A stretch of 46,640 bases of DNA from Thermoanaerobaculia bacterium (GCA_046590705.1 JBKJUK010000256.1:1-46640), one strand, 5' to 3'. Positions 15,366 to 43,576 are shown, counted from the stretch's first letter. Notes: a model not told the origin generated them from the sequence alone. Numbers and translations are program-made.

Positions 15366-15548
15366 CAGCCCGCATTTCTCACACTCCTTCTGCTGCGGCG
15401 GCGGATAGCACCCTGTCTGCTTCGTTACACGACGGTTTCGCTCCTCAACATAGAGTCCACTATGCCCTCGTCGCGAAATCGCCGTGCGCCTCGCATCCAG
15501 GCCACTCTCCCCCGCCTCGCAACGAACGAGTGTGAGAAACGCGGGCTG
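15366..15548 (-). repeat. Structured palindromic element (MITE-like or ncRNA), copy 1
   Basis: 21-bp terminal IR with 1 mismatch (CAGCCCGCATTTCTCACACTC / GAGTGTGAGAAACGCGGGCTG) and nested inner stems. Shares two exact 11-mers with 43456-43576. Confidence 0.8.
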
Positions 15549-15582
15549 CGGTTCAACAGAACGCAAAGTACACTCTCCCCGA

Positions 15583-16767
15583 ATGCCGACTCACTCCCTG
15601 CGGCGCGGACAGAGAATCGAGCTCGAGGCTCGTGAGCTTGTGGCCGGTGGTGATGCTCTCTGCCGCCACGGTTCGCTCCCGGTCTTCGTGGCCGGCCTTT
15701 TTCCTGGCGACATCGCCATCGTGGAAATCACCGAGGCCAGGAAGAACTTTGCGCGCGGCGAATGGCGGAAGCGGATCTTCGACAGCCCGCTCCGACGCGC
15801 CGCACCATGTCCAATTGCCGACAGCTGCGGAGGATGCGACTGGACTGCCCTCCGCCTCGACGTGCAGCTGGAGGCCAAAAAGAAAATTCTCGACGAGTCG
15901 CTGCGACGGGTCGGGAAATTCGACACAGCATCGCTTCCCGAGATCAAGCTTCATCCTTCTCCACTGAATTACCGGCTTCGCAGCCGCCTCCATTACGACA
16001 AGAGGAAGCGGGCCATCGGTTTCTATGCGGCCGGTACCCACCATGTCGTTCCGCTCACGACTGCCTGTGAAGTCGTTGGCCCGGGCGTCATCGATCACCT
16101 CGATGAACTCACTCGCGAGGCCGGGCGAGCAAATGCCTCGGTGGAAACCTTCGAGAACGGACGTCACTTCTGGTCCGGAATTGCGGAACGCACTGAATCA
16201 GGGGTCGCCCTCGATGTCGGCTCGGATCGGTATCAGCTGTCGACCGCCGCGTTCTTCCAGGTGAACCGGCATTTGCTTCGACAGTTGCTCGAGCGGATCG
16301 AAACGCATGGCGGAAGTTGCTGGCCCAGACGCCTGGCTTTCGATCTTTACGGCGGCGTCGGTTTCTTCGCTCTGCCCCTGGCCAGAACGTTCGACTCCGT
16401 GGTCACGGTCGAATCCTCGGCGGTCTCGCATCGTTACGCGAAGCTGAATACCGCTCACCTCCGAAACGTCGAAGCCGACAGCCGATCGGTGGAAGCCTTC
16501 CTGAGTTCCACCAGGCAGCATCCCGACTTCATCATGATCGATCCGCCCCGCGCCGGAATGTCGCCCAAGGTGATGGAGATCGTGGCTGACTCCCCTGCGG
16601 AGAAGATTTGTTATCTCTCGTGCGATCCGGTAACCTTTGCACGGGACGCGTCACGGCTTGCGCGCTCAGGCTGGATTCCCACCTCCCTCGATCTACTCGA
16701 TCTGTTTCCAAACACTCACCACATCGAGACTCTCTCGCTCTTCGAGCGTGCAGAAAAAAGAAAATAA
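15583..16767 (+). CDS. rlmD: RNA (uracil-C5)-methyltransferase, RlmD/TrmA family with TRAM domain
   Basis: Fe-S Cys cluster C-x5-CGGC, FFQVN, DLYGGVGFF, IDPPRAG, YLSCDP and DLFPNTHHIE motifs. Confidence 0.85.
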   Translation: MPTHSLRRGQRIELEARELVAGGDALCRHGSLPVFVAGLFPGDIAIVEITEARKNFARGEWRKRIFDSPLRRAAPCPIADSCGGCDWTALRLDVQLEAKKKILDESLRRVGKFDTASLPEIKLHPSPLNYRLRSRLHYDKRKRAIGFYAAGTHHVVPLTTACEVVGPGVIDHLDELTREAGRANASVETFENGRHFWSGIAERTESGVALDVGSDRYQLSTAAFFQVNRHLLRQLLERIETHGGSCWPRRLAFDLYGGVGFFALPLARTFDSVVTVESSAVSHRYAKLNTAHLRNVEADSRSVEAFLSSTRQHPDFIMIDPPRAGMSPKVMEIVADSPAEKICYLSCDPVTFARDASRLARSGWIPTSLDLLDLFPNTHHIETLSLFERAEKRK

Positions 16768-19009
16768 ACTACCCGCATTCATCCCGGCACTTCTGCTGGC
16801 AGCAACCATCGCTGCAGCAGACTTCCTCGTCGTTTCCCGGCTCGAGCTCTGGCTGCTGGGGCTCTCGGGTCTGGCATCGCTGGCACTGAGGTCCAGGTGG
16901 GCTCGATCAGCGGGAATCTCGCTGCTGGTCGTCACCCTGGCGATGCTGCTTCTCCAGAAGCGACAGGCGCAACAGACAGCGGAGCTATCCTGCCTCGGGC
17001 GAATGGAGCAAACTCGCTTTGTCGACGCCGCGGCAACCGTAGAACGAGTCATCTCGCATAAGAGCGAATCCCGACTGGTCGAACTGCGTGGCGTCACGTT
17101 TTCGCAGAATTCCCTGACTTGCCGTAGCAGTCTGCCTGTTCTGCTCATCCTTCCATCGGACGCGCCGGCGACAGTGCCCAACGCGACCTTCAGGAGTGCA
17201 GGCCTCCTTTCCTTCGGCGACTCCGGTCTTCGACTTCATGTGAAGTCGGCGCAGTTGATCGAATCGATCACGAATCACCGTCGCCGCGGCCTGGCCGGAG
17301 TGAACGATGCCATTGCGGCCAGATTCAATTCGGAAGCCGAGGCAGTGCCAGAGCGGCGCGAGCTTCTGGCATTACTGCAGGCGGTCGTGCTGGGCCGCAG
17401 CACGCAGCTGGATGAAGCGATCAAGGAAAAGTATCGCGCGGCAGGCACGTATCACCTGCTGGTTTTTTCCGGGATGCAGATCACTCTGCTCGCAGGAATG
17501 CTGGCGTTCCTTCTGAGACGGTTTGGAAGGCCGCGGCTGAGCGACATCACCCTGCTGACCCTGGCTTGCGCCGCGCCGCTATTCGCCGGCGCGGAGCCAT
17601 CGGTCACACGCTGCGCGATGATGATTGGCCTGTACGCAGTCGCACGCCTGCTGGGCAGACCTACCTCGATCGAAAACCTCTACTTCGTCTCGATCATTTT
17701 CCGTCTGCTGGTGGTGCCGAACGATCTCTACGACGGAGGTTTCGCCATGACCTATGCCGCTACCTTCGGTCTCATCTTCTGCGGTAAGCCACTGATTGCG
17801 GCGCGCCAGGTGAGGAATCCAATTCTGGCCGCGCTTCTCTACGGTGTCTGCGCTGAACTCGCAATCCTGCCATTCCTGCTTACCTGGTTTCAGCAGTTCA
17901 CCGCGGGAGGCGCGCTGCTGACGCTCCTCATCGCTCCGCTCTTTTCACTGCTTCTCTGCCTCGGCATCCTCTATTGCCTGCTTCTTTTTCTTCTCCCCGA
18001 CCTTTCTGCCCCACTCCTCGATCTGCTGGCATTCATCAGCAACCTGGCAGATCTGTTGAACGCGGCGGGCGCGGAACTTCTCTGGCGTGGACCAGCAGCC
18101 CGACCGTCAATCCCAATCATGTATGCGGTCCTGGGCTTGCTCTGCATCATGCTGCTCTTCCGCTGGTCGCCTTCGCTCAGAATTCTTCTACTTTTCGTCA
18201 TTCCACTGCAGGTGGCAATTTTTCATGCGACGCACTCGAGTGTCGACGTGCCACGGGCGGTGCTGCTTGACGTCGGGCAGGGCGACGCGGTCCTGGTTCG
18301 AAGCGAATCGCGCAACATCCTCGTTGACGGAGGTGGATGGGGAGAGAGTTCGCACTTCGGACGACGGATTCTCATTCCCCAACTGCTGGCCCGTGGAGTG
18401 AGACGACTCGACGCGGTCGTGTTGACCCATCCGCATCCTGACCACTGTGGAGGGCTCCCCGATGTACTACGTGACCTGGAGGTGGGCGAGCTCTGGATGA
18501 ATGCACGGCACCTCCCGCAACCATGCGCATTGGAACTGGCCCATCTCGCTGCCCGTAACGGCACACTGCTACGCCTTGTCAGGTATTCAGGGCGTCAGCT
18601 GATTGGCGGTCTGCCGGCCACAACGCTGGTTCCGCGGCTGCGGTTGAAGCGCTCCTGGCTCAACAACAGTTCGCTGGTCTGCCGGCTGGAGTTCCCTGGC
18701 GCGCGGATTCTGCTCACCGGCGATATCGAAAAGGAGGCGGAACTGCTGTACGCGGACGAACATCCAGCCGCGTTGCGTGCCGAGTACCTGAAGATTCCTC
18801 ACCATGGCAGCAAAACCTCGAGTTCGCTTGAATTCGTGCGTGCCGTCGATCCGCGCGTAGGGCTGATCTCCGCCGGAAAAGACAATCCGTTCGGACACCC
18901 GCATCAGGAAGTTCTGCAGCGACTGCGCGCCGCGAAGACGTCGATACGACGAACGGATCTGCAAGGCGCCATCGAGATCGACCTGCTGCCGGGAGCACGA
19001 CGAAATTGA
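16748..19009 (+). CDS. comEC: DNA uptake competence protein ComEC/Rec2
   Basis: Competence domain (GTYHLLVFSG) and metallo-beta-lactamase domain (DVGQGD, THPHPDH, LTGD, PHHGS, NPFGHP). Start placed at in-frame GTG 16748. Confidence 0.92.
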   Translation: MQKKENKLPAFIPALLLAATIAAADFLVVSRLELWLLGLSGLASLALRSRWARSAGISLLVVTLAMLLLQKRQAQQTAELSCLGRMEQTRFVDAAATVERVISHKSESRLVELRGVTFSQNSLTCRSSLPVLLILPSDAPATVPNATFRSAGLLSFGDSGLRLHVKSAQLIESITNHRRRGLAGVNDAIAARFNSEAEAVPERRELLALLQAVVLGRSTQLDEAIKEKYRAAGTYHLLVFSGMQITLLAGMLAFLLRRFGRPRLSDITLLTLACAAPLFAGAEPSVTRCAMMIGLYAVARLLGRPTSIENLYFVSIIFRLLVVPNDLYDGGFAMTYAATFGLIFCGKPLIAARQVRNPILAALLYGVCAELAILPFLLTWFQQFTAGGALLTLLIAPLFSLLLCLGILYCLLLFLLPDLSAPLLDLLAFISNLADLLNAAGAELLWRGPAARPSIPIMYAVLGLLCIMLLFRWSPSLRILLLFVIPLQVAIFHATHSSVDVPRAVLLDVGQGDAVLVRSESRNILVDGGGWGESSHFGRRILIPQLLARGVRRLDAVVLTHPHPDHCGGLPDVLRDLEVGELWMNARHLPQPCALELAHLAARNGTLLRLVRYSGRQLIGGLPATTLVPRLRLKRSWLNNSSLVCRLEFPGARILLTGDIEKEAELLYADEHPAALRAEYLKIPHHGSKTSSSLEFVRAVDPRVGLISAGKDNPFGHPHQEVLQRLRAAKTSIRRTDLQGAIEIDLLPGARRN

Positions 19010-19035
19010 CACGTTTGAATCGCGGCGCTTAACAT
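19006..19035 (+). promoter_or_regulatory. Sigma70-type promoter, probably leaderless
   Basis: TTGACA (19006-19011), 18-nt spacer, TAACAT (19030-19035), then ATG at 19043, 7 nt downstream. Confidence 0.55.
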
Positions 19036-19042
19036 CGTGGAA

Positions 19043-19372
19043 ATGTCGACAACGCTTCTTCGCTTCGGCCTGTGGATCGTGCTGCTGGTTCTCGGAGCGT
19101 ACGTTCTGCGCGAAACATTCGCCGAGGCTCCCGAGACCGAGTATCTGGCCATGCCCTTCCTGCAGAAAGTGGGCGGCTTCGGCCTTCTTTTGATCGCGGT
19201 CGGTGCCGGCCTTGGTTTCGCAGAGAAACTCATACGTAAGGCGCGGAAGAGTCGATGCTCAGTGTGCAGGAAGCCGGTCTTCAAGGGTGAGCTCTACTGT
19301 CGCCCGCATCTTCGGCAGGTGATCGAGGAGGAAGACGATCGCTTCCACAACACACAACTTCGAGGGCGCTGA
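19043..19372 (+). CDS. Small two-TM membrane protein with a C-terminal CxxC...CxxH zinc finger
   Basis: Two hydrophobic helices followed by CSVC-x10-CRPH. Confidence 0.7.
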   Translation: MSTTLLRFGLWIVLLVLGAYVLRETFAEAPETEYLAMPFLQKVGGFGLLLIAVGAGLGFAEKLIRKARKSRCSVCRKPVFKGELYCRPHLRQVIEEEDDRFHNTQLRGR

Positions 19373-20303
19373 ATTCCGGCAGAGCGTACCCCTCATCGTC
19401 ATCGGAGGAGCCACAGGCACGGGCAAGAGCAGTCTGGCCATGGAGCTCGCAGCGAGGCTCAACGGCGAGATTGTGAACTGCGATTCGATTCAGATTTACC
19501 GCGGATTCGACGTCGGCAGCGCCAAGCCATCCGCTGCAGACCGGCAAAGTGTTCCTCACCACCTGTTCGATTTCGTCGACGCAGACGAGCCGTTCACCGC
19601 CGCCGACTTCTCCGCGCACGCCTCCCGAGTATGCCGGGAGATTCTCGCGCGCGGACGGAGCCCCATCGTCGTCGGGGGGACCGGCTTCTACCTCCGCGCT
19701 CTGCTGGCCGGACTTCCTGCGCTACCTTCGAGCGACCCCGCCATGAGGTCACGCCTGCAGAAGCTGAGATCCAATGAACGGGGACGGGCAAGACTTTTCC
19801 GCCTCCTGCAACGCGTCGATCCGCCAACCGCGCTGCGACTCGCTCCGGGCGACAGTCATCGCATCGAACGCGCACTCGAGGTTTACTTCAGCACCGGCAA
19901 ACCAATCTCCAGTTGGGAGCGACCCACTGCCTCGACCCCTCCCAGATGGAGTGCGATCAAGTTCGCTCTCGATCTGGAAAGAGAAACGCTGGTGGCCCGT
20001 CTCGACGCGCGCGTCGCTTCGATATACGCGAACGGACTTCTGGAAGAGACGGCCGAATTGCTGACGCACTATCAATGCGACGCCGCGCCCTTTCAATCCA
20101 TCGGATATCGCGAGGCTGTTCGTCACCTCTCGGGTTCGCTTTCGCTGGGCGAGGCCATCAATCAAACCAGACAGCGAACCCGCGCCTATGCCAAACGGCA
20201 GAGAACCTGGTTCCGCGGGGAAGTCGACACCCACTGGCTCGACGCTGCAAGCTCGATCTCGGTACTTGGCGAGCAAGCTCTTCAGCTGATCACCGCGAGA
20301 TGA
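19338..20303 (+). CDS. miaA: tRNA dimethylallyltransferase (start codon uncertain)
   Basis: P-loop PLIVIGGATGTGKS lies upstream of ATG 19440. DSIQIY, GSAKP, PHHL, VGGTGFY, SIGY and YAKRQRTWF motifs are present. The frame is open back to the TGA at 19320. Start tentatively placed at ATC 19338. Confidence 0.9.
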   Translation: MASTTHNFEGAEFRQSVPLIVIGGATGTGKSSLAMELAARLNGEIVNCDSIQIYRGFDVGSAKPSAADRQSVPHHLFDFVDADEPFTAADFSAHASRVCREILARGRSPIVVGGTGFYLRALLAGLPALPSSDPAMRSRLQKLRSNERGRARLFRLLQRVDPPTALRLAPGDSHRIERALEVYFSTGKPISSWERPTASTPPRWSAIKFALDLERETLVARLDARVASIYANGLLEETAELLTHYQCDAAPFQSIGYREAVRHLSGSLSLGEAINQTRQRTRAYAKRQRTWFRGEVDTHWLDAASSISVLGEQALQLITAR

Positions 20304-20304
20304 C

Positions 20305-20335
20305 AGGCCGGGGGCCGGAGTCGGGGGGCCGGAGC
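20305..20335 (+). repeat. G-rich heptad repeat arm
   Basis: AGGCCGGGGGCCGGAGTCGGGGGGCCGGAGC immediately after the miaA stop. Confidence 0.85.
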
Positions 20336-20394
20336 AAGGCAAGCCGATTCATCAGTCGTGCCGGTCCCCTCGTATCGGTCACTGGCTCCCGGTA

Positions 20395-20474
20395 CGTCAT
20401 TCCGATGAGCAGGCGAACCTTTTGCGAGCTTGCTCGCTTTGAATGCGAAGAGGAATCTCCGTTCCGCGCCGCGA
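20395..20474 (+). repeat. CGTC-type palindromic repeat, single arm
   Basis: CGTCATTCCGATGAGC...GCGAAGAGGAATCTCCGTTCCGCGCCGCGA. The last 30 nt are the exact reverse complement of 38561-38590. Confidence 0.85.
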
Positions 20475-20632
20475 AAGCCGAAGTGCAGCACCACCTCTGT
20501 GGGGTCGAGGCTTCTCTGCGCGGGCCAAGGCGGCGTGCAGTGAATGAGCATGCGACAACCCACCATTTACGACGCACCAGACTCGTCTTCCGATACAATC
20601 CGGTCGTTTCTCCAACTCACTGGATCGTCCTC

Positions 20633-21946
20633 ATGCATGCAACCACTCTCCGCGCTTTCCCGTCAGCAATCTTAGCGATCGTCATGCTCGCGGCCTGTGC
20701 TTCAACCGCTCCTCAGGTCGAGCAAACCACCACCGCACCTCGTAACCCGTTTCTCATCGATCCGAGAACGGGCGTGAATGAAACAGTCTCACCGGAGGAT
20801 GCACGACGGTTCGATGCCGCATGGGCTGCCTTCAGACGTGGCGCACCGGTCGAGGCCGAACGACTCTTCGCCGACATCGAATTGAGGAGTCCGGGCCGGG
20901 CAGATGTAGCGCTGGCGCTGGCCGCCATTTCCCTCGACTCAGGAGATCCGGCCGCTGCCGAAGAACTGATTGCGCGGGCAGAAGCGTCAGGGCGAACGCT
21001 CGCCAGCACTCTCTACCGAGCCGAAATCGCACGCTCGCGCGGCGATTGGAAAACCGCCTTCGCGCGCTACACCGAAGTTTCACGCAACGCTGCCGCACCG
21101 CCAGGCATCAGCGAGCGGCTGGCCGAATCGCGAGACAAACATTTCGCACAGCTCCTGTCCGAGGCCGAGGCGGCATCTGACGCAGATCGCTCAGCAGCAA
21201 TGCTCCGTGCTGCGCTCGAACTCAAGCCTGAGGCCTCGAACACCCGCATTCAACTCGTGCGTAAGTTGATCGCTTCGAGCGACTGGGATGAGGCGCGCCG
21301 GGAACTCGACCCGCTGCTGAGGCGTGGTGAAGCCGACCGTACCGAGGTTCAGGAAGCGCTTGCCGATATCGATGCAGGAAAGGGCCGTTTCCAGGAAGCG
21401 ATCGTCCGGCTAGAGAAACTCATCCGGCGCGCACCTGACGCTCGACTGCAGCAAAAATTGGATGCGCTCAAGACTGACTTCACCAGCGCCAACATGCCAC
21501 CCCAGTACCGGAGAGCACGCGAGTCGGCAGCGATCAACCGCGCCGACTTCTCGGTTCTGCTTTACTGGGAAGTCTCCTCCGTTCGTTTCGCGACCAGGCT
21601 CAGACAGCCGCCCATCGCCGTAGACATCAGCAACGTGATCGGTCGGGACGAACTGGTGCGAGCGCTCGCCCTCGGTCTATTCAACGTCGATCCAATCACC
21701 AGGCGAGTTGATCCGTACAGAGTGATCACAATCAGCAGCTTCACTCGAATCGTCGCACGAGTGCTGCAGATGCGTGGGGCACCCTGCGCCGGCACGAGCG
21801 AGCCCGCTGACTTCGCATCCGCGCAGCGGGTGCTGAGCAGCTGTGGAGTATCCGTTCCCGATGCACAGGGCGCGACCGAAGCACCCGTCAGTGGCACCGC
21901 GGCCGCCAACACGCTGAGGAAGGTCGATGAGATTTTGTCGAAGTGA
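20633..21946 (+). CDS. TPR-repeat lipoprotein
   Basis: Signal peptide with lipobox LAAC after ATG 20633, followed by Ala/Leu-rich helical TPR-like repeats. The ORF-track start at 19913 overlaps miaA and repeats. Confidence 0.8.
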   Translation: MHATTLRAFPSAILAIVMLAACASTAPQVEQTTTAPRNPFLIDPRTGVNETVSPEDARRFDAAWAAFRRGAPVEAERLFADIELRSPGRADVALALAAISLDSGDPAAAEELIARAEASGRTLASTLYRAEIARSRGDWKTAFARYTEVSRNAAAPPGISERLAESRDKHFAQLLSEAEAASDADRSAAMLRAALELKPEASNTRIQLVRKLIASSDWDEARRELDPLLRRGEADRTEVQEALADIDAGKGRFQEAIVRLEKLIRRAPDARLQQKLDALKTDFTSANMPPQYRRARESAAINRADFSVLLYWEVSSVRFATRLRQPPIAVDISNVIGRDELVRALALGLFNVDPITRRVDPYRVITISSFTRIVARVLQMRGAPCAGTSEPADFASAQRVLSSCGVSVPDAQGATEAPVSGTAAANTLRKVDEILSK

Positions 21947-21957
21947 GGCAGGTGAAG

Positions 21958-21988
21958 CGGCTGGGGTCTGGGGGCCGGGGGCCGGAGC
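21958..21988 (+). repeat. G-rich heptad repeat arm (left arm of cassette)
   Basis: CGGCTGGGGTCTGGGGGCCGGGGGCCGGAGC, 11 nt after the TPR gene stop. Confidence 0.8.
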
Positions 21989-21997
21989 AGCTGATGG

Positions 21998-22046
21998 CAG
22001 TAGTCAGTAAGCAGTAGTCAGTAAGCAGTAGTCAGTAACTAGTAGT
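21998..22046 (+). repeat. Tandem heptamer repeat, 7 units (CAGTAGT/CAGTAAG alternating)
   Basis: CAGTAGT CAGTAAG CAGTAGT CAGTAAG CAGTAGT CAGTAAC TAGTAGT, read directly. Confidence 0.95.
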
Positions 22047-22064
22047 CCTGTTGCGATCCGCGCT

Positions 22065-22091
22065 TGTGTGGCACAGGCAATCCTGCCTGTG
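22065..22091 (+). repeat. Solo GTGG-type REP arm
   Basis: TGTGTGGCACAGGCAATCCTGCCTGTG, identical to the REPIN arms. Confidence 0.9.
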
Positions 22092-22136
22092 TGCATTTGG
22101 CATCGCCGGTGCTGCCGAGTTCCTAATAGGTTTCTA

Positions 22137-22168
22137 CCCCGGCCCCCTGACCCCGGCCTCCGGCCCGC
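22137..22168 (-). repeat. G-rich heptad repeat arm (right, inverted)
   Basis: Plus strand CCCCGGCCCCCTGACCCCGGCCTCCGGCCCGC, just past the stop of 22172..22852. Confidence 0.8.
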
Positions 22169-22171
22169 TCC

Positions 22172-22852
22172 TCATCCAAACAGCGACAGACGCGGGATCG
22201 CGAACTGCTTCCTGATGAGTCTTCGCAGATTTGCATCTGAGGTCCGCGCTCGCACTTTCTCATCGGCGATGCCTGCGAGGGCGCGGCTCGCTTCCTGTTC
22301 GAGGACAGCCTTCTCATCGGGAGTAAGCGAAGCACGTAACAACTCGAAGAGTGCGGACTCGAGCATGATCAGTTTCTCCTCGAGATCCGGGACTGAGGTC
22401 ACTTTCCGGTTCAAACCGTTCACCTTGATAGCAGTCGCGCTGAGCGCCTCGGCAGCGGATGACGTCTTTGAATTCAAGGCGGCCTGCTCGAGATCATTCG
22501 CAAGCAGGGCCAGTCCTGCTCCCGGATCTAGTTCGGGGATCGAGCCCGTCGATCCGGCCTGCAGCGACTTCCGTTCTTCCCAGAGATCTTTGACGGCGTG
22601 ACGGCAGTAGGAAAGACTGGAGATCGTTTTGCGCCTTCCGCTCTCGCTGTTTTTCTGAAAACAGCCGTCGATCGCTTCAATCAGGATGGGCAGGGGGATC
22701 CCGCCTTCTTTCCAGCTCTTCAGGAGAGCCCAGTCTTTGGCCGAGATAACGAACGCAGTGCCTCGCTTCTCCGCAAAGTGCGACTCGATTTCCAGGAAAT
22801 AGTCGTCTTCGGGGAGAAAATGGTGCGGTGGCTCTTCAGTTCTGCTCGGCAA
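22172..22852 (-). CDS. Hypothetical protein with a possible DnaD-like N-terminal domain
   Basis: Helical 226-aa ORF. The W-x3-GIPLxxLxEAI...SLSYC pattern resembles DnaD domains (inference). Confidence 0.65.
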   Translation of the reverse strand: MPSRTEEPPHHFLPEDDYFLEIESHFAEKRGTAFVISAKDWALLKSWKEGGIPLPILIEAIDGCFQKNSESGRRKTISSLSYCRHAVKDLWEERKSLQAGSTGSIPELDPGAGLALLANDLEQAALNSKTSSAAEALSATAIKVNGLNRKVTSVPDLEEKLIMLESALFELLRASLTPDEKAVLEQEASRALAGIADEKVRARTSDANLRRLIRKQFAIPRLSLFG

Positions 22853-23231: not shown

Positions 23232-23371
23232 ATCAGTGTTCCTCGCAGCAGGTGACGGTGCATTCTTCTACGTCCCGCGACTTCTGTCCAGATTCGTGCA
23301 CGACTCGAATCGTAGTAAGGTTCCAGTGTGACGTCCATTTCCCGTTGTGCTGGTCCGCGGAAGTTTCGGTC

Positions 23372-25030: not shown

Positions 25031-25047
25031 CTGGAAGGCGTTCAGCC

Positions 25048-25070
25048 GTAGGGGCGAACTGCGTTCGCCC
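25048..25070 (+). repeat. GTAG-type REP palindrome
   Basis: GTAG-GGGCGAAC-TGC-GTTCGCCC. Confidence 0.7.
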
Positions 25071-25221
25071 GCTCCCTCACGGCCGTTCCATGGAACTCAA
25101 CGTAGAGAGCGCGCCCCACGAACGTACCTGCTGCTAGAGACGCTCCAACCATGCGTTTTCTTGCGCAGCGCAGCCATCGCCTGCGGCAGGCAGAACCGCT
25201 CGACGCTGCTACAATCTGCCC

Positions 25222-32930: not shown

Positions 32931-32942
32931 CAGGCCCCCACT

Positions 32943-38281: not shown

Positions 38282-38381
38282 CGTGTGCCGTACCGCTCCT
38301 TCAAATCGAACGACCGGGCCACCTCAGGCCGGGTGGTTTTCAGGGTCTTCAGACCGCTTTGGATTGCGAGTCTCATGCCTT

Positions 38382-38406
38382 GCGGGCCGGGGTCGGGGGC
38401 CGGAGC
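38382..38406 (+). repeat. G-rich heptad repeat arm (left arm of cassette)
   Basis: GCGGGCCGGGGTCGGGGGCCGGAGC. Confidence 0.75.
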
Positions 38407-38462
38407 GAAGAACACTGCATCCTCACTACTCCTGGTTCACGCCCCTGCCCGCATCGCCTGAA

Positions 38463-38640
38463 CGTCATTCCGATGAGCCGCGTGATGGTGGGAGATCTCG
38501 CAGCATTGAATGCGAAGAGGAATCTCAGGTCCGCGCGGACGCGGTGGATCGCCACGACCCTCGCGGCGCGGAACGGAGATTCCTCTTCGCGTCACCCCGC
38601 GCAAGCTTGCCCGAAGCACTCCGTGCTCATCGGAATGACG
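38463..38640. repeat. CGTC-type palindromic element, full copy (178 bp)
   Basis: Perfect 16-bp terminal IR CGTCATTCCGATGAGC/GCTCATCGGAATGACG and perfect 15-bp inner IR GCGAAGAGGAATCTC/GAGATTCCTCTTCGC. Confidence 0.9.
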
Positions 38641-38683
38641 GCGTGGTGTGGAACACAGGAGTACTGAAGCTGCCTTGTTGCTG

Positions 38684-38720
38684 GCTCCGGCCCCCTGACT
38701 CCGGCCCCCGGCCCGCATCA
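38684..38720 (-). repeat. G-rich heptad repeat arm (right, inverted)
   Basis: Minus strand reads TGATGCGGGCCGGGGGCCGGAGTCAGGGGGCCGGAGC. Confidence 0.85.
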
Positions 38721-38759
38721 TCCCCCGACCCGCATCTCTTGATAGGATGCACCCTGATC

Positions 38760-39770
38760 ATGAATCAGATCACCATCAACGTTCGCTACCCGCCCGGAAA
38801 AGGGACCATCGCACTCCGCACCGAGCATGACTGGGATCGGACGCTCGAGCCGGATTCATACGACGAGGAAAGTTTTCAAGCCGCTTTCCTCATCGACACC
38901 GAGCGCCCTCACTTCTACTTCAAGCCCGTGCTGCTCGCAGACGGCGAGGAAATGGCGTGGGCTCGAGGCGGCAACTATCTGGCCATCATGAATGTGCAGC
39001 CGAGCCGCAACGTCTATCCACACTTTTATGATGAACGGGGCTCGACGATCTGCGAAAAGTTCGAGCCGCCGTCATTCAGTTCCGACTCGCATGCGGTGCG
39101 CATCTTTCTTCCTCCCGGATACGAAGAGAACACACTCAAGCGGTACCCGGTGCTCTACATGCAGGACGCGCACAATCTGTTCTTTCCGCATGAAGCCTTC
39201 ACAGGAGAGCACTGGCGAATCAGCGAGACACTGGACATCCTCACCTCGATGAACATCATCCGGAAATCGATCGTGGTCGGAATCTATCCGAATGACCGCC
39301 TGGTGGAGTTCACGAATCCGGGCTACGAAGAGTACGGGCGCTATGTCGTCGATGACCTCAAGCCGTTGGTCGATGCCAGATACCGCACTTTGAAAGATCG
39401 CGAGAACACCGCGGTCATGGGTTCCTCACTCGGAGGGGTGGTGTCGTTCTTCCTGGCCTGGCAATACCCCGACGTCTTCGGTAAAGCCGCGTGCATGTCG
39501 AGCACATTCGGTTTTCGTGACGACCTGATGGAACGGGTCCGCCGCGAGGATAAACCGGACCTGCAGCTCTATCTCGACAGCGGCTGGCCGGAGGATAATT
39601 ACGAGGCCACCAGAACGATGAGGGACCTGTTGCTCAAGCAGGGCTTCGAGTCGGGCCGCGACCTGTTGTACTTTGCATTCCCTAACGCTCTGCACAACGA
39701 GCGTTACTGGGCCATGAGAAGTCACATTCCATTTCAATATTTCTTCGGTAAAGTCCCCCATGGCGAATAG
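38760..39770 (+). CDS. Alpha/beta-hydrolase esterase (PF00756-like) with N-terminal beta domain
   Basis: LPPGY, YPVLYMQD, GSSLGG nucleophile elbow, LYLDSG and HNERYW motifs. Start ATG 38760; the upstream part of the tracked ORF is repeat DNA. Confidence 0.88.
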   Translation: MNQITINVRYPPGKGTIALRTEHDWDRTLEPDSYDEESFQAAFLIDTERPHFYFKPVLLADGEEMAWARGGNYLAIMNVQPSRNVYPHFYDERGSTICEKFEPPSFSSDSHAVRIFLPPGYEENTLKRYPVLYMQDAHNLFFPHEAFTGEHWRISETLDILTSMNIIRKSIVVGIYPNDRLVEFTNPGYEEYGRYVVDDLKPLVDARYRTLKDRENTAVMGSSLGGVVSFFLAWQYPDVFGKAACMSSTFGFRDDLMERVRREDKPDLQLYLDSGWPEDNYEATRTMRDLLLKQGFESGRDLLYFAFPNALHNERYWAMRSHIPFQYFFGKVPHGE

Positions 39771-40554
39771 CGCTGCAAACACCTCACGGCTGCATCCGCA
39801 AGTCGATTTTCTGGAAGCGCTCGCCGACCTCGGTGGCCATAAGCTTTTCTTCCGACGTGGCGGCACAGGTGGTCCGGCCATCCTCTTTGAAACAGGCTGC
39901 GGAACCTCTGCGGATGACTGGAAGGAAGTGCAAACTGCACTCTCGCTATCGAGTACCACCCTGGCCTACGACCGGGCAGGATGTGGGCGCAGCGATCGCG
40001 GGGCCGGTCCTCGTACGCCCGGCACGATCGTGGCTGAGCTTCGACTGCTTTTGCGCGCGCTGCAGATGGCACCTCCATACATACTGGTGGGACATTCTCT
40101 GGGAGGCCTCAGCATGCGGCTCTTCGCCCATCTGTACGGCCCTGAAGTTGCCGGGATGATCCTTGTCGATTCGGCGCACGAAGAGATGCGCAGCCGGCTG
40201 CCGGCTGACTACTGGTCACACGAGCAGAGTAGCGTCGCGCGCATGTCCGGCATCGGACGCGAAGAAGCGCTCTCACTCGAGCGCGGCTTCGACGAGTTGC
40301 GGAACGCTGGAAGTTCTCTCGGCGAACTTCCGCTGACGGTCATCACGGCCGGGCGAAAGTTTTTCGACGCTCCAAGGGGAATCCGCAGGACGCCGATCCG
40401 CGCAGCGTGGTCAGAACTCCAGCGCGACCTCGTGGCACGATCGTCAGCGGGCCGTCAGGTTCTGGTTCGCGACTCCGGCCATTCCGTCCATCGCGAGCGG
40501 CCTGACCTCGTCATCGAGGAACTGCAACGGATGCTGGAACTGGTGCGGAGATAA
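39760..40554 (+). CDS. Alpha/beta fold hydrolase
   Basis: YDRAGCGRS, LVGHSLGG, GMILVDS and SGHSVH motifs. Confidence 0.88.
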   Translation: MANSAANTSRLHPQVDFLEALADLGGHKLFFRRGGTGGPAILFETGCGTSADDWKEVQTALSLSSTTLAYDRAGCGRSDRGAGPRTPGTIVAELRLLLRALQMAPPYILVGHSLGGLSMRLFAHLYGPEVAGMILVDSAHEEMRSRLPADYWSHEQSSVARMSGIGREEALSLERGFDELRNAGSSLGELPLTVITAGRKFFDAPRGIRRTPIRAAWSELQRDLVARSSAGRQVLVRDSGHSVHRERPDLVIEELQRMLELVRR

Positions 40555-40611
40555 AAGTGAGGCGCAGCACGCAGAACGGAACAGAGCGAAACTTCGGCAA
40601 TGGAGTGATCA

Positions 40612-40642
40612 GTGGAGCACAGGCAATCCTGCCTGTGGCGCG
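40612..40642 (+). repeat. Solo GTGG-type REP arm (GTGGAG variant)
   Basis: GTGGAGCACAGGCAATCCTGCCTGTGGCGCG. Confidence 0.88.
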
Positions 40643-40693
40643 CGACAAAACTCATCGCGACGCTTTGAGGACGAACGCGGAGTTCGCGCAGGC

Positions 40694-43105
40694 ATGACGA
40701 GATCAATCTGCATCCACGGTCATTTCTATCAGCCCCCACGCGAAAATCCGTGGCTCGACACCGTGGAGATGCAGGATTCCGCCGCTCCGTTTCATGACTG
40801 GAACGAGCGCATCACCGAAGAATGCTATGCGCCGAACGGCGCCTCTCGCATTCTCGACAGCGAAGAAAGAATCGTAAGGATCGTCAATAACTACTCGCGG
40901 ATCAGTTTCAATTTCGGGCCGACACTGCTGACCTGGCTGGAACGACACGCGCGGGAAACGTACGACGCCATTCTTGCCGCGGACCGCGAGAGCAGCAGCG
41001 TCTTTTCCGGTCATGGTTCGGCCATCGCCCAGTCGTACAACCATCTGATCATGCCGCTGGCGAATCAGCGCGACCAGAGAACTCAGGTGGTCTGGGGAAT
41101 GCGTGACTTCGAGGCGCGTTTCGGTCGAAAAGCGGAAGGAATGTGGCTGCCGGAAACGGCTGTCGACATCGCCTCGCTGGAAGCTCTCGCCGATGCCGGA
41201 GTGAAGTACACGATTCTCGAGCCGCATCAGGCCTTGCGCGTCCGTCCGTCTGCCTCGACAGAATGGCTGGATGTATCGGGTCGTCCCGTCGATTCAAAGC
41301 AGCCCTACAAGACGCTTCTCCCGTCGGGACGCTCGCTCGCAATCTTCTTCTACGACGGCCCGATCTCTCGAGCGGTTGCCTTCGAGCGTCTACTCACCCG
41401 CGGTGAATTTCTGGCAAATCGATTACTTGGCGCTTTTTCTGACACAACGGACGCTCATCAGCTGGTGAACATCGCCACGGATGGAGAGACGTACGGACAT
41501 CACCATCGCTTCGGCGATATGGCTCTGGCATACGCGCTCGACACCATCCAGCGCGTCGAACCCGCGCAACTCACCAACTACGGCGAATATCTCGAAGAGC
41601 ACCCACCGAGCTGGGAGGTAGACGTTGCCGAGAACACTTCATGGAGTTGCGTGCATGGCGTGGAGCGGTGGCGAAGTGACTGTGGTTGTCATACCGGCGG
41701 CGCAGAGGGCTGGAACCAGAGTTGGCGCCACCCTCTTCGGAATGCACTGGACATGTTGCGGGACGCGGTACTGCCGATCTTCGAAGAGCGTGCGGCCGTT
41801 TTGCTCGACGATCCATGGCGCGCGCGCGACAACTACATCGAGGTCATCCTCGACCGCTCCGACGAAGCGCTGGACCGTTATTTCACGCGCGAGCAGAAGC
41901 GAGCGCTGACCGAGGTCGAGCGCGTCGAGGCGCTTCAGCTTCTGGAAATGCAGCGGCATGCCATGCTGATGTACACGAGCTGCGGATGGTTCTTCAACGA
42001 TGTCTCCGGAATTGAGACCGAACAGGTGCTGCATTTTGCCGGTCGGGTTGCGCAGCTCGCAGCGCTCTTCACGAGCGAGCCGATCGAACAGCGTTTCATC
42101 GAACTGCTCCGGCTTGCGCGTAGCAACGTGGCCAGCCAGGGTGATGCGGCCACGATGTACGAAGCCCGGGTCAAGACCACCATGCTCGACCTGGCGCGCG
42201 TGGCCGCTCACTGGGCGGTTCTCAGTCAGTTCGAGCAACAGGAACGTGAGAGCAGCGTGTACTGCTACGACGTCCGTCGCGAGGATGTCACCACGCTCGA
42301 GAGCGGGCGCTCGCGTCTTACCGTTGGTAGAATCCGAGTCACCTCGCGTATCACACGCGCATTCGAAACATTCGACTTTGGACTTCTCTACCTGGGCGAC
42401 GTCCATCTGACCGGTGGCGCGCGCATCAGTCGTGGTGACGAAGCGTTCGATGAACTTCGGAAGCAGATGTCCGACTCGCCATTCGGCACCGACTTCACAT
42501 CTGTAGTTCGACTGCTGGATCAGCAGTTCGAAAGTCTCACCTTCTCGATCCGTTCTCTTTTCAGGGACGAGCAGCGCCGAGTCCTCAGCAAGATCTGCGA
42601 CGTCACCCTCGGTGAAGCTGAGATCGCGCTCCGTCAGCTGCATGAAAAGTATGTTCCGCTGATGCGTTACCACCACGAACTCGGCATCCCGCTCCCGCGC
42701 GTTCTGGGAGTCGCTGCGGAGTTCGACCTGAATCTCAGATTGCAGCGTGCCATTCAAGCCGAGGAGCTTCCGATCGCCGAGATCGAAGGACTCTGGCGGC
42801 AGGCGCGATCAGAAGATGTCACACCAGACGCGACGTCTCTCTTCGTTCTCGAGCGACGCATCGATCGAATGGTCGACACGGTCTCGCATGCTCCGACAAA
42901 TCTCGAGGCTATGCAGAAGCTGCTGTCCGCTGTTCTTTTGGTCCGACGACTCACGCTCAATGTAGACCTGTGGCGAGCGCAAAATCTATTCAACCGACTT
43001 CGCAGCGCAACGTTCGAAGCGCAGAACCAGGTGGACGACGCCGATTCGAAGAACTGGATCGCCGCCTATCAGGAACTGGCAAGCGCGCTGCGATTCAGAA
43101 TGTGA
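40694..43105 (+). CDS. Glycoside hydrolase family 57 protein with DUF3536
   Basis: IHGHFYQPPRENPW, WLPETAVD, ATDGETYGHH, SWSCVHGVERW and MYTSCGWFF motifs. Confidence 0.92.
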   Translation: MTRSICIHGHFYQPPRENPWLDTVEMQDSAAPFHDWNERITEECYAPNGASRILDSEERIVRIVNNYSRISFNFGPTLLTWLERHARETYDAILAADRESSSVFSGHGSAIAQSYNHLIMPLANQRDQRTQVVWGMRDFEARFGRKAEGMWLPETAVDIASLEALADAGVKYTILEPHQALRVRPSASTEWLDVSGRPVDSKQPYKTLLPSGRSLAIFFYDGPISRAVAFERLLTRGEFLANRLLGAFSDTTDAHQLVNIATDGETYGHHHRFGDMALAYALDTIQRVEPAQLTNYGEYLEEHPPSWEVDVAENTSWSCVHGVERWRSDCGCHTGGAEGWNQSWRHPLRNALDMLRDAVLPIFEERAAVLLDDPWRARDNYIEVILDRSDEALDRYFTREQKRALTEVERVEALQLLEMQRHAMLMYTSCGWFFNDVSGIETEQVLHFAGRVAQLAALFTSEPIEQRFIELLRLARSNVASQGDAATMYEARVKTTMLDLARVAAHWAVLSQFEQQERESSVYCYDVRREDVTTLESGRSRLTVGRIRVTSRITRAFETFDFGLLYLGDVHLTGGARISRGDEAFDELRKQMSDSPFGTDFTSVVRLLDQQFESLTFSIRSLFRDEQRRVLSKICDVTLGEAEIALRQLHEKYVPLMRYHHELGIPLPRVLGVAAEFDLNLRLQRAIQAEELPIAEIEGLWRQARSEDVTPDATSLFVLERRIDRMVDTVSHAPTNLEAMQKLLSAVLLVRRLTLNVDLWRAQNLFNRLRSATFEAQNQVDDADSKNWIAAYQELASALRFRM

Positions 43106-43109
43106 GGGG

Positions 43110-43146
43110 TGATGCAGGCCGGGGGCCGGGGTCGTGGGGCCGGGGC
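43110..43146 (+). repeat. G-rich heptad repeat arm with canonical G-quadruplex pattern
   Basis: TGATGCAGGCC-GGGGG-CC-GGGG-TCGT-GGGG-CC-GGGG-C, 4 nt after the GH57 stop. Confidence 0.85.
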
Positions 43147-43250
43147 TGCTGAACGCGGAAACTCAGAAGCTAGAAGGAAGAAAAGGTCAATGGCTGTAGG
43201 GATTTCTTTCTCACTTCGTCGTTCTGCGTTCGGCGTTCTGCGTTCATCAG
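43146..43250 (+). repeat. GAACGCA-heptamer hairpin element, copy B
   Basis: CTGCTGAACGC...GCGTTCATCAG ends, TGCGTTC-type heptads on the right, and a core shared with 11893-11997. Confidence 0.75.
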
Positions 43251-43388
43251 TCTTCGAAGTCAGAGGGTCCCGTCACAGGCAGGATTGCCCGTGCCACACA
43301 TCCCCATTGCTGGCGACCAGTCTGCCTGGTTATCACGTGTTCGAAGTCAGAGCGTCCCGACACAGGCAGGATTGCCTGTGCTCCACAC
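43251..43388 (+). repeat. Two tandem right-half REPIN fragments (43251-43300, 43340-43388)
   Basis: Each reads TTCGAAGTCAGAG.GTCCCG.CACAGGCAGGATTGCCYGTGC..., matching the right flank and arm of the full copies. Confidence 0.88.
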
Positions 43389-43455
43389 GTCTCTGTACGA
43401 GATCGAGAGCGGGACGAAGTCCAGCGCGAACGCAACACGCGCACCCGCGAACGTA

Positions 43456-43576
43456 GCGTGATCAAACGGGGTCAGATGCGAGGCGGAGCGAGGTCGGACG
43501 GTGAGGCGTGGCCCAAGCCACGTTGAAACCGGCCGGCCGAAGCGACAACGAAGCAGATGGCCTCGTTTCATCACGC
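43456..43576 (+). repeat. Structured palindromic element (MITE-like or ncRNA), copy 2
   Basis: 19-bp imperfect outer stem with invariant GATGCGAGGCG (43475-43485) and AACGAAGCAGA (43547-43557). Ends 3 nt from the pfk stop. Confidence 0.8.

What the first reader, a model, noticed from the sequence alone, without database searches (positions are those of the whole stretch)
15366..43576. Candidate new structured nucleic-acid element: invariant 11-mers at fixed spacing, covarying stems, unrelated outer arms
Seen: two loci 28 kb apart in opposite orientations (15366-15548 minus, 43456-43576 plus) share one architecture: outer stem - GATGCGAGGCG - stem2 - GAGG(G)C - stem3/loop - GTTGA - stem2' - AACGAAGCAGA - outer stem'. 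Both 11-mers are identical between copies and lie 60 versus 61 nt apart. The stems differ in sequence but keep pairing. Stem3 is CATAG/CTATG versus CGTGGC/GCCACG. Stem2 is CACGGCGATTTCGC/GCGAAACCGTCGTG versus GGTCGGACGGT/ACCGGCCGGCC. The outer arms are unrelated (21-bp versus 19-bp IR). Conserved internal loops with freely swapped helices indicate selection on structure. An ordinary MITE shows the opposite pattern, with conserved termini. One copy lies in the divergent sucC/rlmD promoter region and the other at the pfk 3' end. Inference: a multicopy structured RNA or ssDNA motif, such as a protein-binding scaffold, ribozyme-like element, or substrate of an unknown mobiliser. Function cannot be read from the sequence, and only two copies support it here.
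Basis: partly seen in the sequence, partly recalled or inferred. Interest (0 to 1): 0.75.

Follow-up and report, generated by a model that had tools for sequence, protein, structure and literature searches.

The report
Cross-phylum hairpin mobile repeat with conserved core
The two look-alike stretches are copies of a small non-coding mobile DNA repeat that folds into a long hairpin, and whose central part, with two unchanging unpaired stretches, turns up in bacteria of many distant phyla, which is unusual for this kind of element.

Summary
The pattern occurs 36 times exactly in this genome, and a covariance model finds 54 copies. The model also matches 27 of 41 relatives and 20 of 20 Sporomusaceae. 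At least 116 exact copies lie in MAGs and genomes of many phyla.

Locus 1 is an ordinary MITE at its ends. It has 14-15-bp terminal inverted repeats and 4-bp target duplications, and an autonomous IS1380-family partner with the same ends exists in a relative. The "unrelated" outer arms are diverged homologues.

What is unusual is a roughly 125-nt hairpin module. It sits inside shells with different ends: IS1380-type, CAGG/CTAG-type, and a Sporomusaceae form with no shell. Its stems covary heavily. Its two 11-mers are the best-conserved part. Its non-Watson-Crick positions are purine-purine on one strand only.

No Rfam family matches and my searches found no paper. Earlier notes of this scan had described the Rokubacteria form on other DNA.

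Best reading: a selfish hairpin MITE superfamily with a strand-specific, selected core of unknown role.

The parts
15369..15545 (-). Type A element: 177-bp MITE, TIR to TIR, wholly foldable as one rod-like hairpin
   Evidence: TIR-based collection lists this copy at length 177 with flanks GCAG/CTGA. MFE is -121.8 kcal/mol forward versus -88.4 reverse for 15366-15548.
15531..15545 (-). Left terminal inverted repeat (CCCGCGTTTCTCACA), IS1380-type
   Evidence: Sequence read. The same TIR bounds the 1.72-kb IS1380-family IS in relative G006.
15369..15383 (-). Right terminal inverted repeat (TGTGAGAAATGCGGG on the element strand)
15404..15509 (-). Hairpin module of locus 1 (12 bp of arms plus the 82-nt core) as matched by covariance model R1
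   Evidence: 72.7 bits, E 6.5e-17, model positions 1-106.
15487..15497 (-). 5' conserved 11-mer GATGCGAGGCG (5' strand of internal loop 1)
   Evidence: Mean identity to consensus is 0.987 among 21 TIR-ascertained copies.
15416..15426 (-). 3' conserved 11-mer AACGAAGCAGA (3' strand of internal loop 1)
   Evidence: Mean identity to consensus is 0.983.
43354..43576 (+). Type B composite repeat (~220 bp): REP-like hairpin, ~75-nt linker, then the hairpin module. The left end is approximate.
   Evidence: Alignment of 17 genomic copies shows conservation from the CACAGGCAGGATTGCCTGTG hairpin to ...TTTCATCACGCGGC. Window sequence read.
43463..43569 (+). Hairpin module of locus 2 as matched by model R1
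   Evidence: 73.5 bits, E 3.8e-17. MFE is -73.3 forward versus -49.2 reverse for 43446-43580.
43475..43485 (+). 5' conserved 11-mer GATGCGAGGCG
43547..43557 (+). 3' conserved 11-mer AACGAAGCAGA
43361..43380 (+). REP-like palindrome CACAGGCAGGATTGCCTGTG at the left of the type B composite. A second copy lies at 43274-43293.

Best explanation
Both loci are copies of a non-coding, non-autonomous mobile repeat (a MITE-like superfamily). Its constant part is a ~125-nt rod-like hairpin module with this layout:
- ~20-bp arms;
- an invariant asymmetric purine-rich internal loop (GAUGCGAGGCG opposite AACGAAGCAGA, with UGC/GCA paired inside it);
- a 15-19-bp variable helix, often built from tandem G.A pairs;
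- a second purine-rich loop;
- a short apical hairpin.

At locus 1 the module sits inside an IS1380-type shell. The shell supplies 14-15-bp TIRs, and the element was pasted into 4-bp YTAR targets by an IS1380-family DDE transposase acting in trans. That enzyme is not found in this assembly, so the copies here are probably orphans.

At locus 2 the same module carries CAGG-type arms related to those of the CTAG-flanked Rokubacteria form. Its left arm is fused to a REP-like hairpin and linker.

Shown: multicopy status, TIRs, target duplications, a partner IS in a relative, stem covariation, conservation of the 11-mers, and one-strand asymmetry.

Inferred: the module is kept by selection on the element's own spread or persistence, as a hairpin formed by the purine-rich strand (ssDNA or RNA). 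Its mismatched loops would be read by a protein. It is not kept because each copy serves the host.
For: Copy number and spread:
- 36 exact and 54 model matches in the genome.
- 27 of 41 relatives.
- 20 of 20 Sporomusaceae, with 1-101 copies each.
- At least 116 stretches in many phyla.

MITE nature of type A:
- 40 full-length copies with distinct flanks were examined. 16 have identical palindromic 4-mers, 5 have identical non-palindromic direct 4-mers, and 1 has a reverse-complement-only pair. The remaining 18 differ between the two sides.
- The genome also holds many internally deleted and solo-TIR derivatives.
- The partner IS in G006 has 6 copies. It is 1.72 kb, with TIRs CCCGGATTTCTCAC / CCCGCATTTCTCAC and a CTAA duplication. 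It scores NF033539 IS1380 at 390 bits and PF13701 at 507 bits.
- The same TIR lies beside IS1380 fragments in G029 and in a Porticoccaceae MAG.
- IS1380 TIR variants (L198, L199) match the arms of the Aminicenantes-type copies.

Structure, from 112 distinct sequences:
- 86.0% of cells are paired, versus 63.2% in shuffles (0 of 500 shuffles reach the observed value).
- 891 double-change cells, versus 285.
- Slid controls give 28-40% paired.
- 37 of 40 pairs show changes on both sides.

Strand asymmetry:
- G.U 265 versus A.C 115, G.A 306 versus C.U 25, G.G 90 versus C.C 20.
- Outer arms: G.U 284 versus A.C 72.
- The forward strand folds better in 7 of the 8 elements folded; L060 is the exception.

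Loops:
- The 11-mers show 0.983-0.987 identity. The arms show 0.78-0.82 among TIR-ascertained copies.
- Where the loops vary, they change together and stay mismatched (107 rows, 5 genomes). G6 goes with A6' in 16 of 17 rows. U6 goes with C6' in 69 of 71.

No host-serving orientation:
- In tandem-gene contexts 21 copies lie on the same strand as the genes and 21 on the opposite strand.
- There is no GC-skew association (Fisher p 0.74).
- Genome G112 has 27 forward and 27 reverse copies.
Against: - No IS1380, IS630 (DDE_3) or DDE_Tnp_1 transposase was found in this genome. Mobilisation here is therefore inferred from a relative. The assembly has 399 contigs, so ISs may be unassembled.
- A DDE cut-and-paste transposase needs only the TIRs. 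It does not explain why an internal core is conserved across shells and phyla, or why it is strand-asymmetric.
- The partner of the CAGG/CTAG-type and Sporomusaceae forms was not found.
- Five rRNA-operon copies in four Sporomusaceae genomes are all in the sense orientation. This would fit an RNA role.
- Covariation counts are cells, not independent events, and alignment A3 was fitted to the model.
- An inverted-repeat DNA element can show arm covariation without any folding.
- No empty site was recovered.
Confidence: 0.55

Rival explanations
1. The module is a true structured non-coding RNA, such as a protein-binding scaffold or an RNA-processing or ribozyme-like element. It rides in MITEs or has been spread by them, and it is kept by selection on the RNA itself.
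For: - The internal loops are asymmetric and invariant, while the helices between them swap freely.
- G.U and G.A are enriched on one strand.
- The loops show mismatch-preserving covariation.
- The same module sits in shells with different ends.
- Copies exist in tiny CPR genomes, 1 and 3 copies.
- All five rRNA-operon copies in Sporomusaceae are in the sense orientation, about 25 nt upstream of the 23S or just after the 5S.
Against: - Orientation relative to flanking genes is random, 21 same versus 21 opposite in tandem contexts.
- No sigma-70-like promoter or intrinsic terminator was found in or beside either window copy.
- There are tens of copies per genome, with many truncated derivatives.
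- No Rfam match.
- There is no expression evidence for this rival; no expression data were available to test it.
Confidence: 0.25
2. It is a plain palindromic MITE family. The conserved core and the 'covariation' reflect common descent, recent horizontal spread and homogenisation between the arms of an inverted repeat. The folded form is under no selection.
For: - Type A has TIRs, target duplications, an autonomous partner and many decayed copies.
- In G046, 4 of 20 copies have the 3' 11-mer replaced by a near-complement of the 5' one. That is what arm-to-arm conversion would produce.
- Orientation is random.
Against: - Arm homogenisation would erase asymmetric loops. Instead they are the best-conserved positions.
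- The loops are identical across phyla whose stems have diverged completely.
- Purine-purine mismatches outnumber pyrimidine-pyrimidine ones by 437 to 53 on one strand.
- Watson-Crick intermediates at the covarying loop position are rare, 3 of 107 rows.
Confidence: 0.12
3. It is a REPIN/PATE-like element moved as single-stranded DNA by an HUH tyrosine transposase (RAYT or IS200/IS605 type) that recognises the hairpin and its mismatches.
For: - Hairpin features are strand-specific.
- Y1_Tnp genes are present in 35 of 41 relatives, including 7 hits in this genome.
- A REP-like palindrome is fused to type B.
- The Sporomusaceae form has no recognisable TIR shell.
Against: - Type A shows real 4-bp target duplications and IS1380 TIRs. 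HUH transposition does not make such duplications.
- Y1_Tnp is nearly ubiquitous among the relatives, so it does not discriminate.
- No copy was seen flanking a Y1 gene. The neighbour clustering found no recurrent transposase next to copies.
- There is no replication-strand bias.
Confidence: 0.06

Closest known systems
IS1380-family insertion sequences and MITEs derived from IS ends
   Same: Type A shares the 14-15-bp TIR (CCCG[C/G]ATTTCTCAC) and the 4-bp YTAR duplication with an intact 1.72-kb IS1380-family element found in a relative. It is short, non-coding and multicopy, and it leaves deleted and solo-TIR relics.
   Different: Only the TIRs are shared with the IS. The interior is a conserved hairpin module that the IS lacks. 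The same module also occurs in elements with unrelated ends.
ERIC/IRU, Correia and other hairpin-forming MITE-like intergenic repeats (features recalled from general knowledge, not from a call)
   Same: They are ~120-180-bp imperfect palindromes that are intergenic and often at gene 3' ends. The CTAG/TA-type flanks of the Rokubacteria form fit this picture too.
   Different: As far as I recall, those families are confined to narrow taxa. They are not reported to keep invariant asymmetric internal loops across phyla. Here exact 11-mers recur in Acidobacteriota, Methylomirabilota, Negativicutes, Bacteroidota, CPR and others.
REP / REPIN elements with RAYT transposases
   Same: Both are abundant intergenic hairpins whose single-stranded form matters. 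Mosaic arrangement with other repeats also occurs at locus 2.
   Different: The target duplications and IS1380 TIRs of type A point to a DDE enzyme. The module is one long rod, not two inverted REPs. No RAYT flanked by copies was seen.
Integron attC sites (features recalled, not tested by a tool)
   Same: Both are strand-specific imperfect hairpins in which structure and a few unpaired bases are conserved while the stem sequence is free.
   Different: There are no cassette arrays and no uniform orientation; three copies on contig C35 lie +, -, +. No R/L box consensus was recognised by eye. The copies are dispersed singly.

Membership tests
MITE (non-autonomous DDE transposon) | Short (<300 bp), non-coding, multicopy | tested here: met
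   The element is 177 bp. There are 36 exact and 54 model matches in the genome.
MITE (non-autonomous DDE transposon) | Terminal inverted repeats | tested here: met
   Type A has CCCGCATTTCTCAC at both ends, with 142 TIR-like hits in the genome. The type B and Rokubacteria forms have CAGG[N]TGCT[S]AAAAA-type arms.
MITE (non-autonomous DDE transposon) | Target-site duplication | tested here: met
   Type A, 40 copies: 16 identical palindromic, 5 identical non-palindromic direct and 1 reverse-complement-only flanking 4-mers. For the Rokubacteria-type form the length of the duplication (TA or CTAG) stayed unresolved. The window's own type A copy has degenerate flanks, GCAG/CTGA.
MITE (non-autonomous DDE transposon) | Autonomous partner with the same TIRs | tested here: met
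   Met for type A in relative G006. Not found in this genome. Not found for type B, the Rokubacteria form or the Sporomusaceae form.
IS1380-family derivative | TIR identity with an IS whose transposase scores as IS1380 | tested here: met
   NF033539 at 390.1 bits (cut-off 180) and PF13701 at 506.7 bits. TIRs are CCCGGATTTCTCAC / CCCGCATTTCTCAC.
IS630/Tc1-mariner-derived MITE | TA duplication within CTAG and a DDE_3 partner with matching TIR | tested here: not met
   - There are no DDE_3 hits in this genome.
- The IS630 elements of G006 and G047 have unrelated TIRs.
- Only 1 of 5 host genomes from other phyla has DDE_3.
- The flank pattern is inconclusive for the Rokubacteria form, 3 xTAG/CTAx cases versus 1 direct.
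REP/REPIN with RAYT | Copies flank or associate with a Y1 (RAYT) gene; no target duplication | tested here: not met
   Type A has target duplications. Y1_Tnp is present in 35 of 41 relatives whatever their copy number. No transposase recurs next to copies.
Any described Rfam family | Match at or near the family's gathering score | tested here: not met
   There were no matches at gathering score over the whole window. In E-value mode the only hits were MIR1437 (28.9 bits against a gathering score of 168), sR7 and Flavivirus_DB (14 bits against 41.5). I read all three as chance.
Self-cleaving ribozyme | Site-specific self-scission | not testable with these tools
   No known ribozyme model matched. 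The rod-like fold has no multi-helix junction. Cleavage itself needs a bench assay.
Kink-turn / loop E type protein-binding RNA motif | Canonical motif: 3-nt bulge followed by tandem sheared G.A (k-turn), or AGUA/GAA (loop E) | tested here: inconclusive
   I inspected the loop by eye against recalled consensus motifs. Tandem G.A pairs flank a UGC/GCA helix, but the strand lengths (5 and 6 nt) and sequence do not fit the canonical forms. No 3D tool was applied.

The most novel reading that the evidence does not exclude
The ~125-nt module is a previously undescribed structured nucleic-acid motif, in RNA or single-stranded DNA form, that is conserved across bacteria. Its mismatched purine-rich loops would be the docking site of a conserved protein, either cellular or element-encoded. 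Several unrelated transposon shells have captured it, or have been captured by it. That would make it a portable functional unit rather than transposon filler.
Probability: 0.3. Interest if true: 0.85.

Novelty: new variant of a known kind. Interest (0 to 1): 0.62.

Why it matters
MITE and REP-like repeats are normally lineage-restricted, and their interiors drift freely. Here one 125-nt hairpin keeps identical unpaired 11-mers and a fixed ~60-nt spacing while its helices are rewritten. It does so across Acidobacteriota, Methylomirabilota, Negativicutes, Bacteroidota, candidate-phyla bacteria and others, and it sits inside shells with different ends.

If the core is needed for mobilisation, it points to an unrecognised single-strand or host-factor step in DDE-type MITE spread. 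If it is an RNA, it is a widespread unannotated family.

In practice it breaks assemblies, since many copies lie at contig ends. It often sits on or next to stop codons, and it is missing from Rfam. It occurs in cultured Sporomusaceae with complete genomes, such as Sporomusa rhizae DSM 16652, so the question can be tested at the bench.

Tried and rejected
- IS630/Tc1 partner. The TIR look-alike and CTAG flanks suggested it. No DDE_3 was found in this genome, and the IS630 copies in G006 and G047 have other TIRs.
- The multicopy IS in G006 with TIR GAGTCTGCGCGGTAG. It often abuts MITEs at CTAG but is a different element.
- C357, a TIR pair 2.4 kb apart. It encloses a methylmalonyl-CoA-mutase-like gene, not a transposase.
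- Resemblance of the G006 IS start region (GAGGCGGCGG..ATGAAGCAGACAG) to the 11-mers. It is not conserved in other IS1380 members, so I treat it as coincidence.
- Empty sites. None were found within the genome or in four soil-metagenome contig sets. The latter only showed other copies' flanks ending in TTAA/CTAA.
- RNA evidence. No RNA holder was listed for the window stretch.
- Neighbour-gene clustering around 118 copies. The recurrent 'families' were ORFs read through the repeat itself, and no transposase recurred.
- Orientation tests against gene direction and GC skew were null.
- Plasmid collection: no match.
- Viral contigs: 0 exact matches.
- Complementarity of the 11-mers to the rRNA operon of L037: none of 9 nt or more.
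- Resemblances to SRP RNA helix 8, 5S loop E, the L11-binding region, k-turns, the 11-nt tetraloop receptor and the d(GCGAAGC) mini-hairpin. All were recalled from memory, none fitted in register, and none is claimed.
- L034 (Phycisphaerales). The 11-mers flank a non-hairpin interior, and the model did not match it even though the locus was searched. I read it as one of the ~1.4 chance hits expected by my arithmetic.
- Conservation of the 11-mers in the 20 G112 copies. Discarded as evidence, because those copies were picked with a pattern that fixes most of the 11-mers.
- Papers. Searches for the 11-mer string, for IS1380+MITE+hairpin, for MITE+structured RNA+covariation+bacteria, for Sporomusa/REP/hairpin, and for tandem G-A/MITE/CTAG found nothing describing this element. 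I read passages of one preprint (10.64898/2026.09.22.753630); it concerns other elements. For all other papers I saw only search listings and abstract starts. Supplementary files were not consulted.

Full report
**1. Observation**

Reading both loci confirms the finding. GATGCGAGGCG and AACGAAGCAGA lie 60 nt apart at 15416-15497 (minus strand) and 61 nt apart at 43475-43557 (plus strand). No shuffle of the window gives a match. Each locus folds into a single long hairpin, and the 11-mers face each other. The gene context is as stated:
- Locus 1 lies between sucC (14063-15358, minus) and a U5-methyltransferase-type gene that ends at 16767 (plus).
- Locus 2 lies between a GH57 gene (ending at 43105) and pfk (43580-44746, minus), and it touches the pfk TAG stop.

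**2. It is a large repeat family**

- The pattern occurs 36 times in the window's own 3.94-Mb, 399-contig assembly, while the reversed control pattern occurs 0 times. Many copies lie at contig ends.
- A covariance model (R1) finds 54 copies in this genome.
- The model has matches in 27 of 41 relatives, with up to 82 copies in one genome.
These come from Methylomirabilota/Rokubacteria, Acidobacteriota, Omnitrophota, Deltaproteobacteria, Porticoccaceae, Aminicenantes, Gemmatimonadota, Chloroflexota, Bacteroidota, Spirochaetota, Negativicutes, and the candidate phyla Kaiserbacteria and Saccharibacteria.
- By my own arithmetic about 1.4 chance matches are expected in that collection. L034, whose interior is not a hairpin and which the model did not match even though the locus was searched, is probably one of them.
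- In the Sporomusaceae 20 of 20 genomes have model matches, from 1 to 101 per genome.
- Nothing was found in 2.9 million viral contigs or in the plasmid collection.

**3. Locus 1 is a genuine MITE of an IS1380-family element**

- Type A copies are 176-179 bp and are bounded by CCCGCATTTCTCAC inverted repeats.
- I examined 40 full-length copies with distinct flanks, taken from this genome and others. The flanking 4-mers are identical and palindromic (CTAG or TTAA) in 16, identical and non-palindromic in 5, and related only by reverse complement in 1. The rest differ between the two sides. Direct repeats of non-palindromic 4-mers indicate a true 4-bp target duplication.
- The genome also holds short internally deleted forms and solo TIRs.
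- Relative G006 has about 219 TIR hits. It also has six copies of a 1.72-kb IS with TIRs CCCGGATTTCTCAC / CCCGCATTTCTCAC, a CTAA duplication and a 472-aa ORF. That ORF scores as an IS1380-family transposase: NF033539 at 390 bits and PF13701 at 507 bits.
- The IS shares only the TIRs with the MITE and has no core.
- The same TIR lies next to IS1380 fragments in another family of the class (L204) and in a gammaproteobacterial MAG (L210).
- IS1380 members with TIR variants (CCCGGATTATTCAC, GGGGATTATTCACGAG) match the arms of the Aminicenantes-type copies.
- The window's genome has no PF13701, PF13358 or PF01609 hit. Its copies therefore look orphaned, with the caveat that the assembly is fragmented.
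- The window copy itself has degenerate flanks, GCAG/CTGA.

**4. Locus 2 and the other shells**

- Type B (17-18 copies) is a composite. It consists of a REP-like palindrome (CACAGGCAGGATTGCCTGTG), a ~75-nt linker, and then the hairpin. The arms of that hairpin (GTGATCAAACGGGGTCA / TGGCCCCGTTTCATCAC) are clearly related to the arms of the Rokubacteria form (CAGGCTGCTCAAAAAGGTCCA / TGGGCCTTTTTCAGCAGCCTG).
- The Rokubacteria form is flanked by CTAG and carries an extra arm-like copy on the left only. It comes in 125-nt and 186-nt sizes in G046 (about 136 arm hits). The longer size has a ~61-nt GA-rich apical extension.
- Whether the Rokubacteria form duplicates TA or CTAG could not be settled.
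- Its partner was not found. IS630 elements in two hosts have other TIRs. IS1380 elements of the Rokubacteria order have CCCGGATTATGCGTGAAC-type ends.
- In Sporomusaceae genome G112 the conserved unit is essentially the bare ~125-nt hairpin, with only weakly conserved asymmetric flanks.
- Aligned by distance from the core, the inner arm of type A matches the Rokubacteria arm at about half its positions (my hand alignment). All forms share a mismatch about 10-12 nt from the core: G.A in 56 and C.C in 43 of 151 sequences.
- So the constant entity is a ~125-nt module, and the shells differ.

**5. Structure**

- RNAfold gives the same architecture for nearly all representatives. From outside in: arm; a GA/GA 2x2 loop; UGC/GCA; an asymmetric loop (GAGGC against AACGAA, with one possible G-C pair); a 15-19-bp helix; a second purine-rich loop; and a 5-7-bp apical stem (commonly GCGUAC/GUACGY).
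- On 112 distinct sequences aligned to the model, 86.0% of cells pair, against 63.2% in shuffles (0 of 500 reach the observed value). Controls with the partner slid give 28-40%. 37 of 40 pairs change on both sides, and there are 891 double-change cells against 285 in shuffles. The caveats are that the alignment is fitted to the model, that cells are not independent events, and that inverted-repeat DNA could mimic part of this.
- In many lineages the middle helix is made of repeats of two Watson-Crick pairs and a tandem G.A (for example L033).
- Non-Watson-Crick cells are strongly one-sided: G.A 306 against C.U 25, G.U 265 against A.C 115, and G.G 90 against C.C 20.
- In the arms G.U numbers 284 against A.C 72.
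- The forward strand folds better in 7 of the 8 elements folded; L060 is the exception (-66.9 forward against -67.9 reverse). Examples: -121.8 against -88.4 for locus 1 and -73.3 against -49.2 for locus 2.
- Within families, single changes give G.U 93 times and A.C 46 times. Double changes keep pairing 90 times and break it 17 times.

**6. The loops are the selected part**

- Among type A copies collected by their TIRs alone (n = 21), identity to consensus is 0.983-0.987 in the 11-mers. It is 0.78-0.82 in the arms and 0.89 in the interior.
- Where the loops do vary, they change together. In 107 rows from five Sporomusaceae genomes:
  - G at position 6 of the 5' strand goes with GAA on the 3' strand in 16 of 17 rows.
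  - T goes with a C at the facing position in 69 of 71 rows.
  - C goes with C in 2 of 2 rows.
  - A goes with GCA in 16 of 17 rows.
- The states are therefore G.A, U.C and A.A/A.C, all mismatches. The Watson-Crick intermediates (G with C, U with A) appear only 3 times.
- The A/GCA state also dominates in the acidobacterial relative G006 (34 of 34 copies).
- Copies with the same interior carry either loop state: L267 against G115:3785095.
- This pattern indicates selection for a defined unpaired geometry rather than simple inheritance. A phylogeny-aware count is still needed.

**7. What the module is for**

- Orientation is random with respect to flanking genes. In tandem contexts 21 copies lie on the same strand as the genes and 21 on the opposite strand, and divergent promoter regions are rare (5 of the 85 copies whose nearest ORFs lay within 400 nt).
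- Orientation is also random with respect to local GC skew (p 0.74). Genome G112 has 27 forward and 27 reverse copies.
- No promoter-like or terminator-like site lies in or beside the window copies. No recurrent protein gene neighbours the copies.
- These results argue against a cis role for host transcripts and against a replication-strand effect.
- A DDE transposase needs only the TIRs, so the conserved, strand-specific core is not explained by the known chemistry.
- I therefore favour a selfish element whose propagating lineages are selected to keep a single-strand hairpin with protein-read loops. It could act during mobilisation or help persistence.
- I keep a sizeable probability for a true RNA function. 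Five rRNA-operon copies in four Sporomusaceae genomes are all in the sense orientation. Four lie about 25 nt upstream of the 23S and one lies just after the 5S. CPR genomes under 1 Mb still carry 1 and 3 copies.

**8. Comparison and novelty**

- No Rfam 15 family matches.
- Five full-text searches found no description. One preprint was checked by passages and deals with other elements.
- Earlier notes of this scan had already described the Rokubacteria 125/186-nt hairpin repeat at CTAG/TAG sites on other DNA, as an undescribed MITE-like family. I partly re-tested this.
- I class the finding as a new variant of a known kind: a MITE/REP-like repeat with an unusually deep-conserved structured core.

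Noticed in passing
window 43274-43293 and 43361-43380; contigs listed: A REP-like palindrome (GTCACAGGCAGGATTGCCTGTGC, followed by CACAC) recurs upstream of most type B copies, often twice. The genome has 7 Y1_Tnp hits, some in 230-320-aa open frames. This may be a separate REP/RAYT system.
   Followed up: partly
window 43195-43250 (reverse complement); contigs: Another repeat, with a GAACGCAGAAC(T/G)CAGAACGCAGAACGATGAAGTAAGAAAA-type unit (a CAGAACG-like heptad repeat), sits next to the REP-like hairpins. The GH57-pfk spacer is therefore a mosaic of at least four repeat families.
   Followed up: no
G000 contigs C16, C130, C145, C181, C195, C262: Half-copies of the type A MITE are joined to yet another multicopy repeat (...GTCATTCCGATGAGCAC...GAAGAGGAATCTCCGTTCCGCGCCGCGCTGAGGTAGCG).
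   Followed up: no
L189, L185, L181, L192 (relative G006): A 1.6-kb DDE_Tnp_1 IS with at least 12 copies, TIR GAGTCTGCGCGGTAG and CTAG flanks repeatedly abuts type A MITEs and its own solo ends. Several elements appear to compete for CTAG sites.
   Followed up: partly
L215, L219, L223, L234 (G046): In 4 of 20 Rokubacteria copies the 3' 11-mer is replaced by (G/C)(T/C)ACCTCCGCAG(A/G), nearly the complement of the 5' 11-mer. This closes loop 1, as arm-to-arm conversion would.
   Followed up: no
L218, L220, L222, L225 etc. (G046): The 186-nt size class carries a ~61-nt GA-rich apical extension. That is about the same length as the normal 60-nt interior, which suggests modular growth of the rod.
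   Followed up: no
L037, L104, L263, L264, L265: Sporomusaceae rRNA operons carry the hairpin in the sense orientation. In S. rhizae the gene order is 16S-5S-[element]-23S. The spacer copies of G041 and of G126/G127 share arms and loops but have different middle helices.
   Followed up: partly
L274-L293 (G112): The weakly conserved flanks of the Sporomusaceae form contain stop codons facing outward on both sides (for example CTTAAGGTGAATAG on the right). Left flanks often end at a ...CTCAG motif that may be a neighbouring gene's stop on the other strand.
   Followed up: no
L061, L068, L176, L177; G000 C163: Several copies lie within a few tens of bases of tRNA genes.
   Followed up: no
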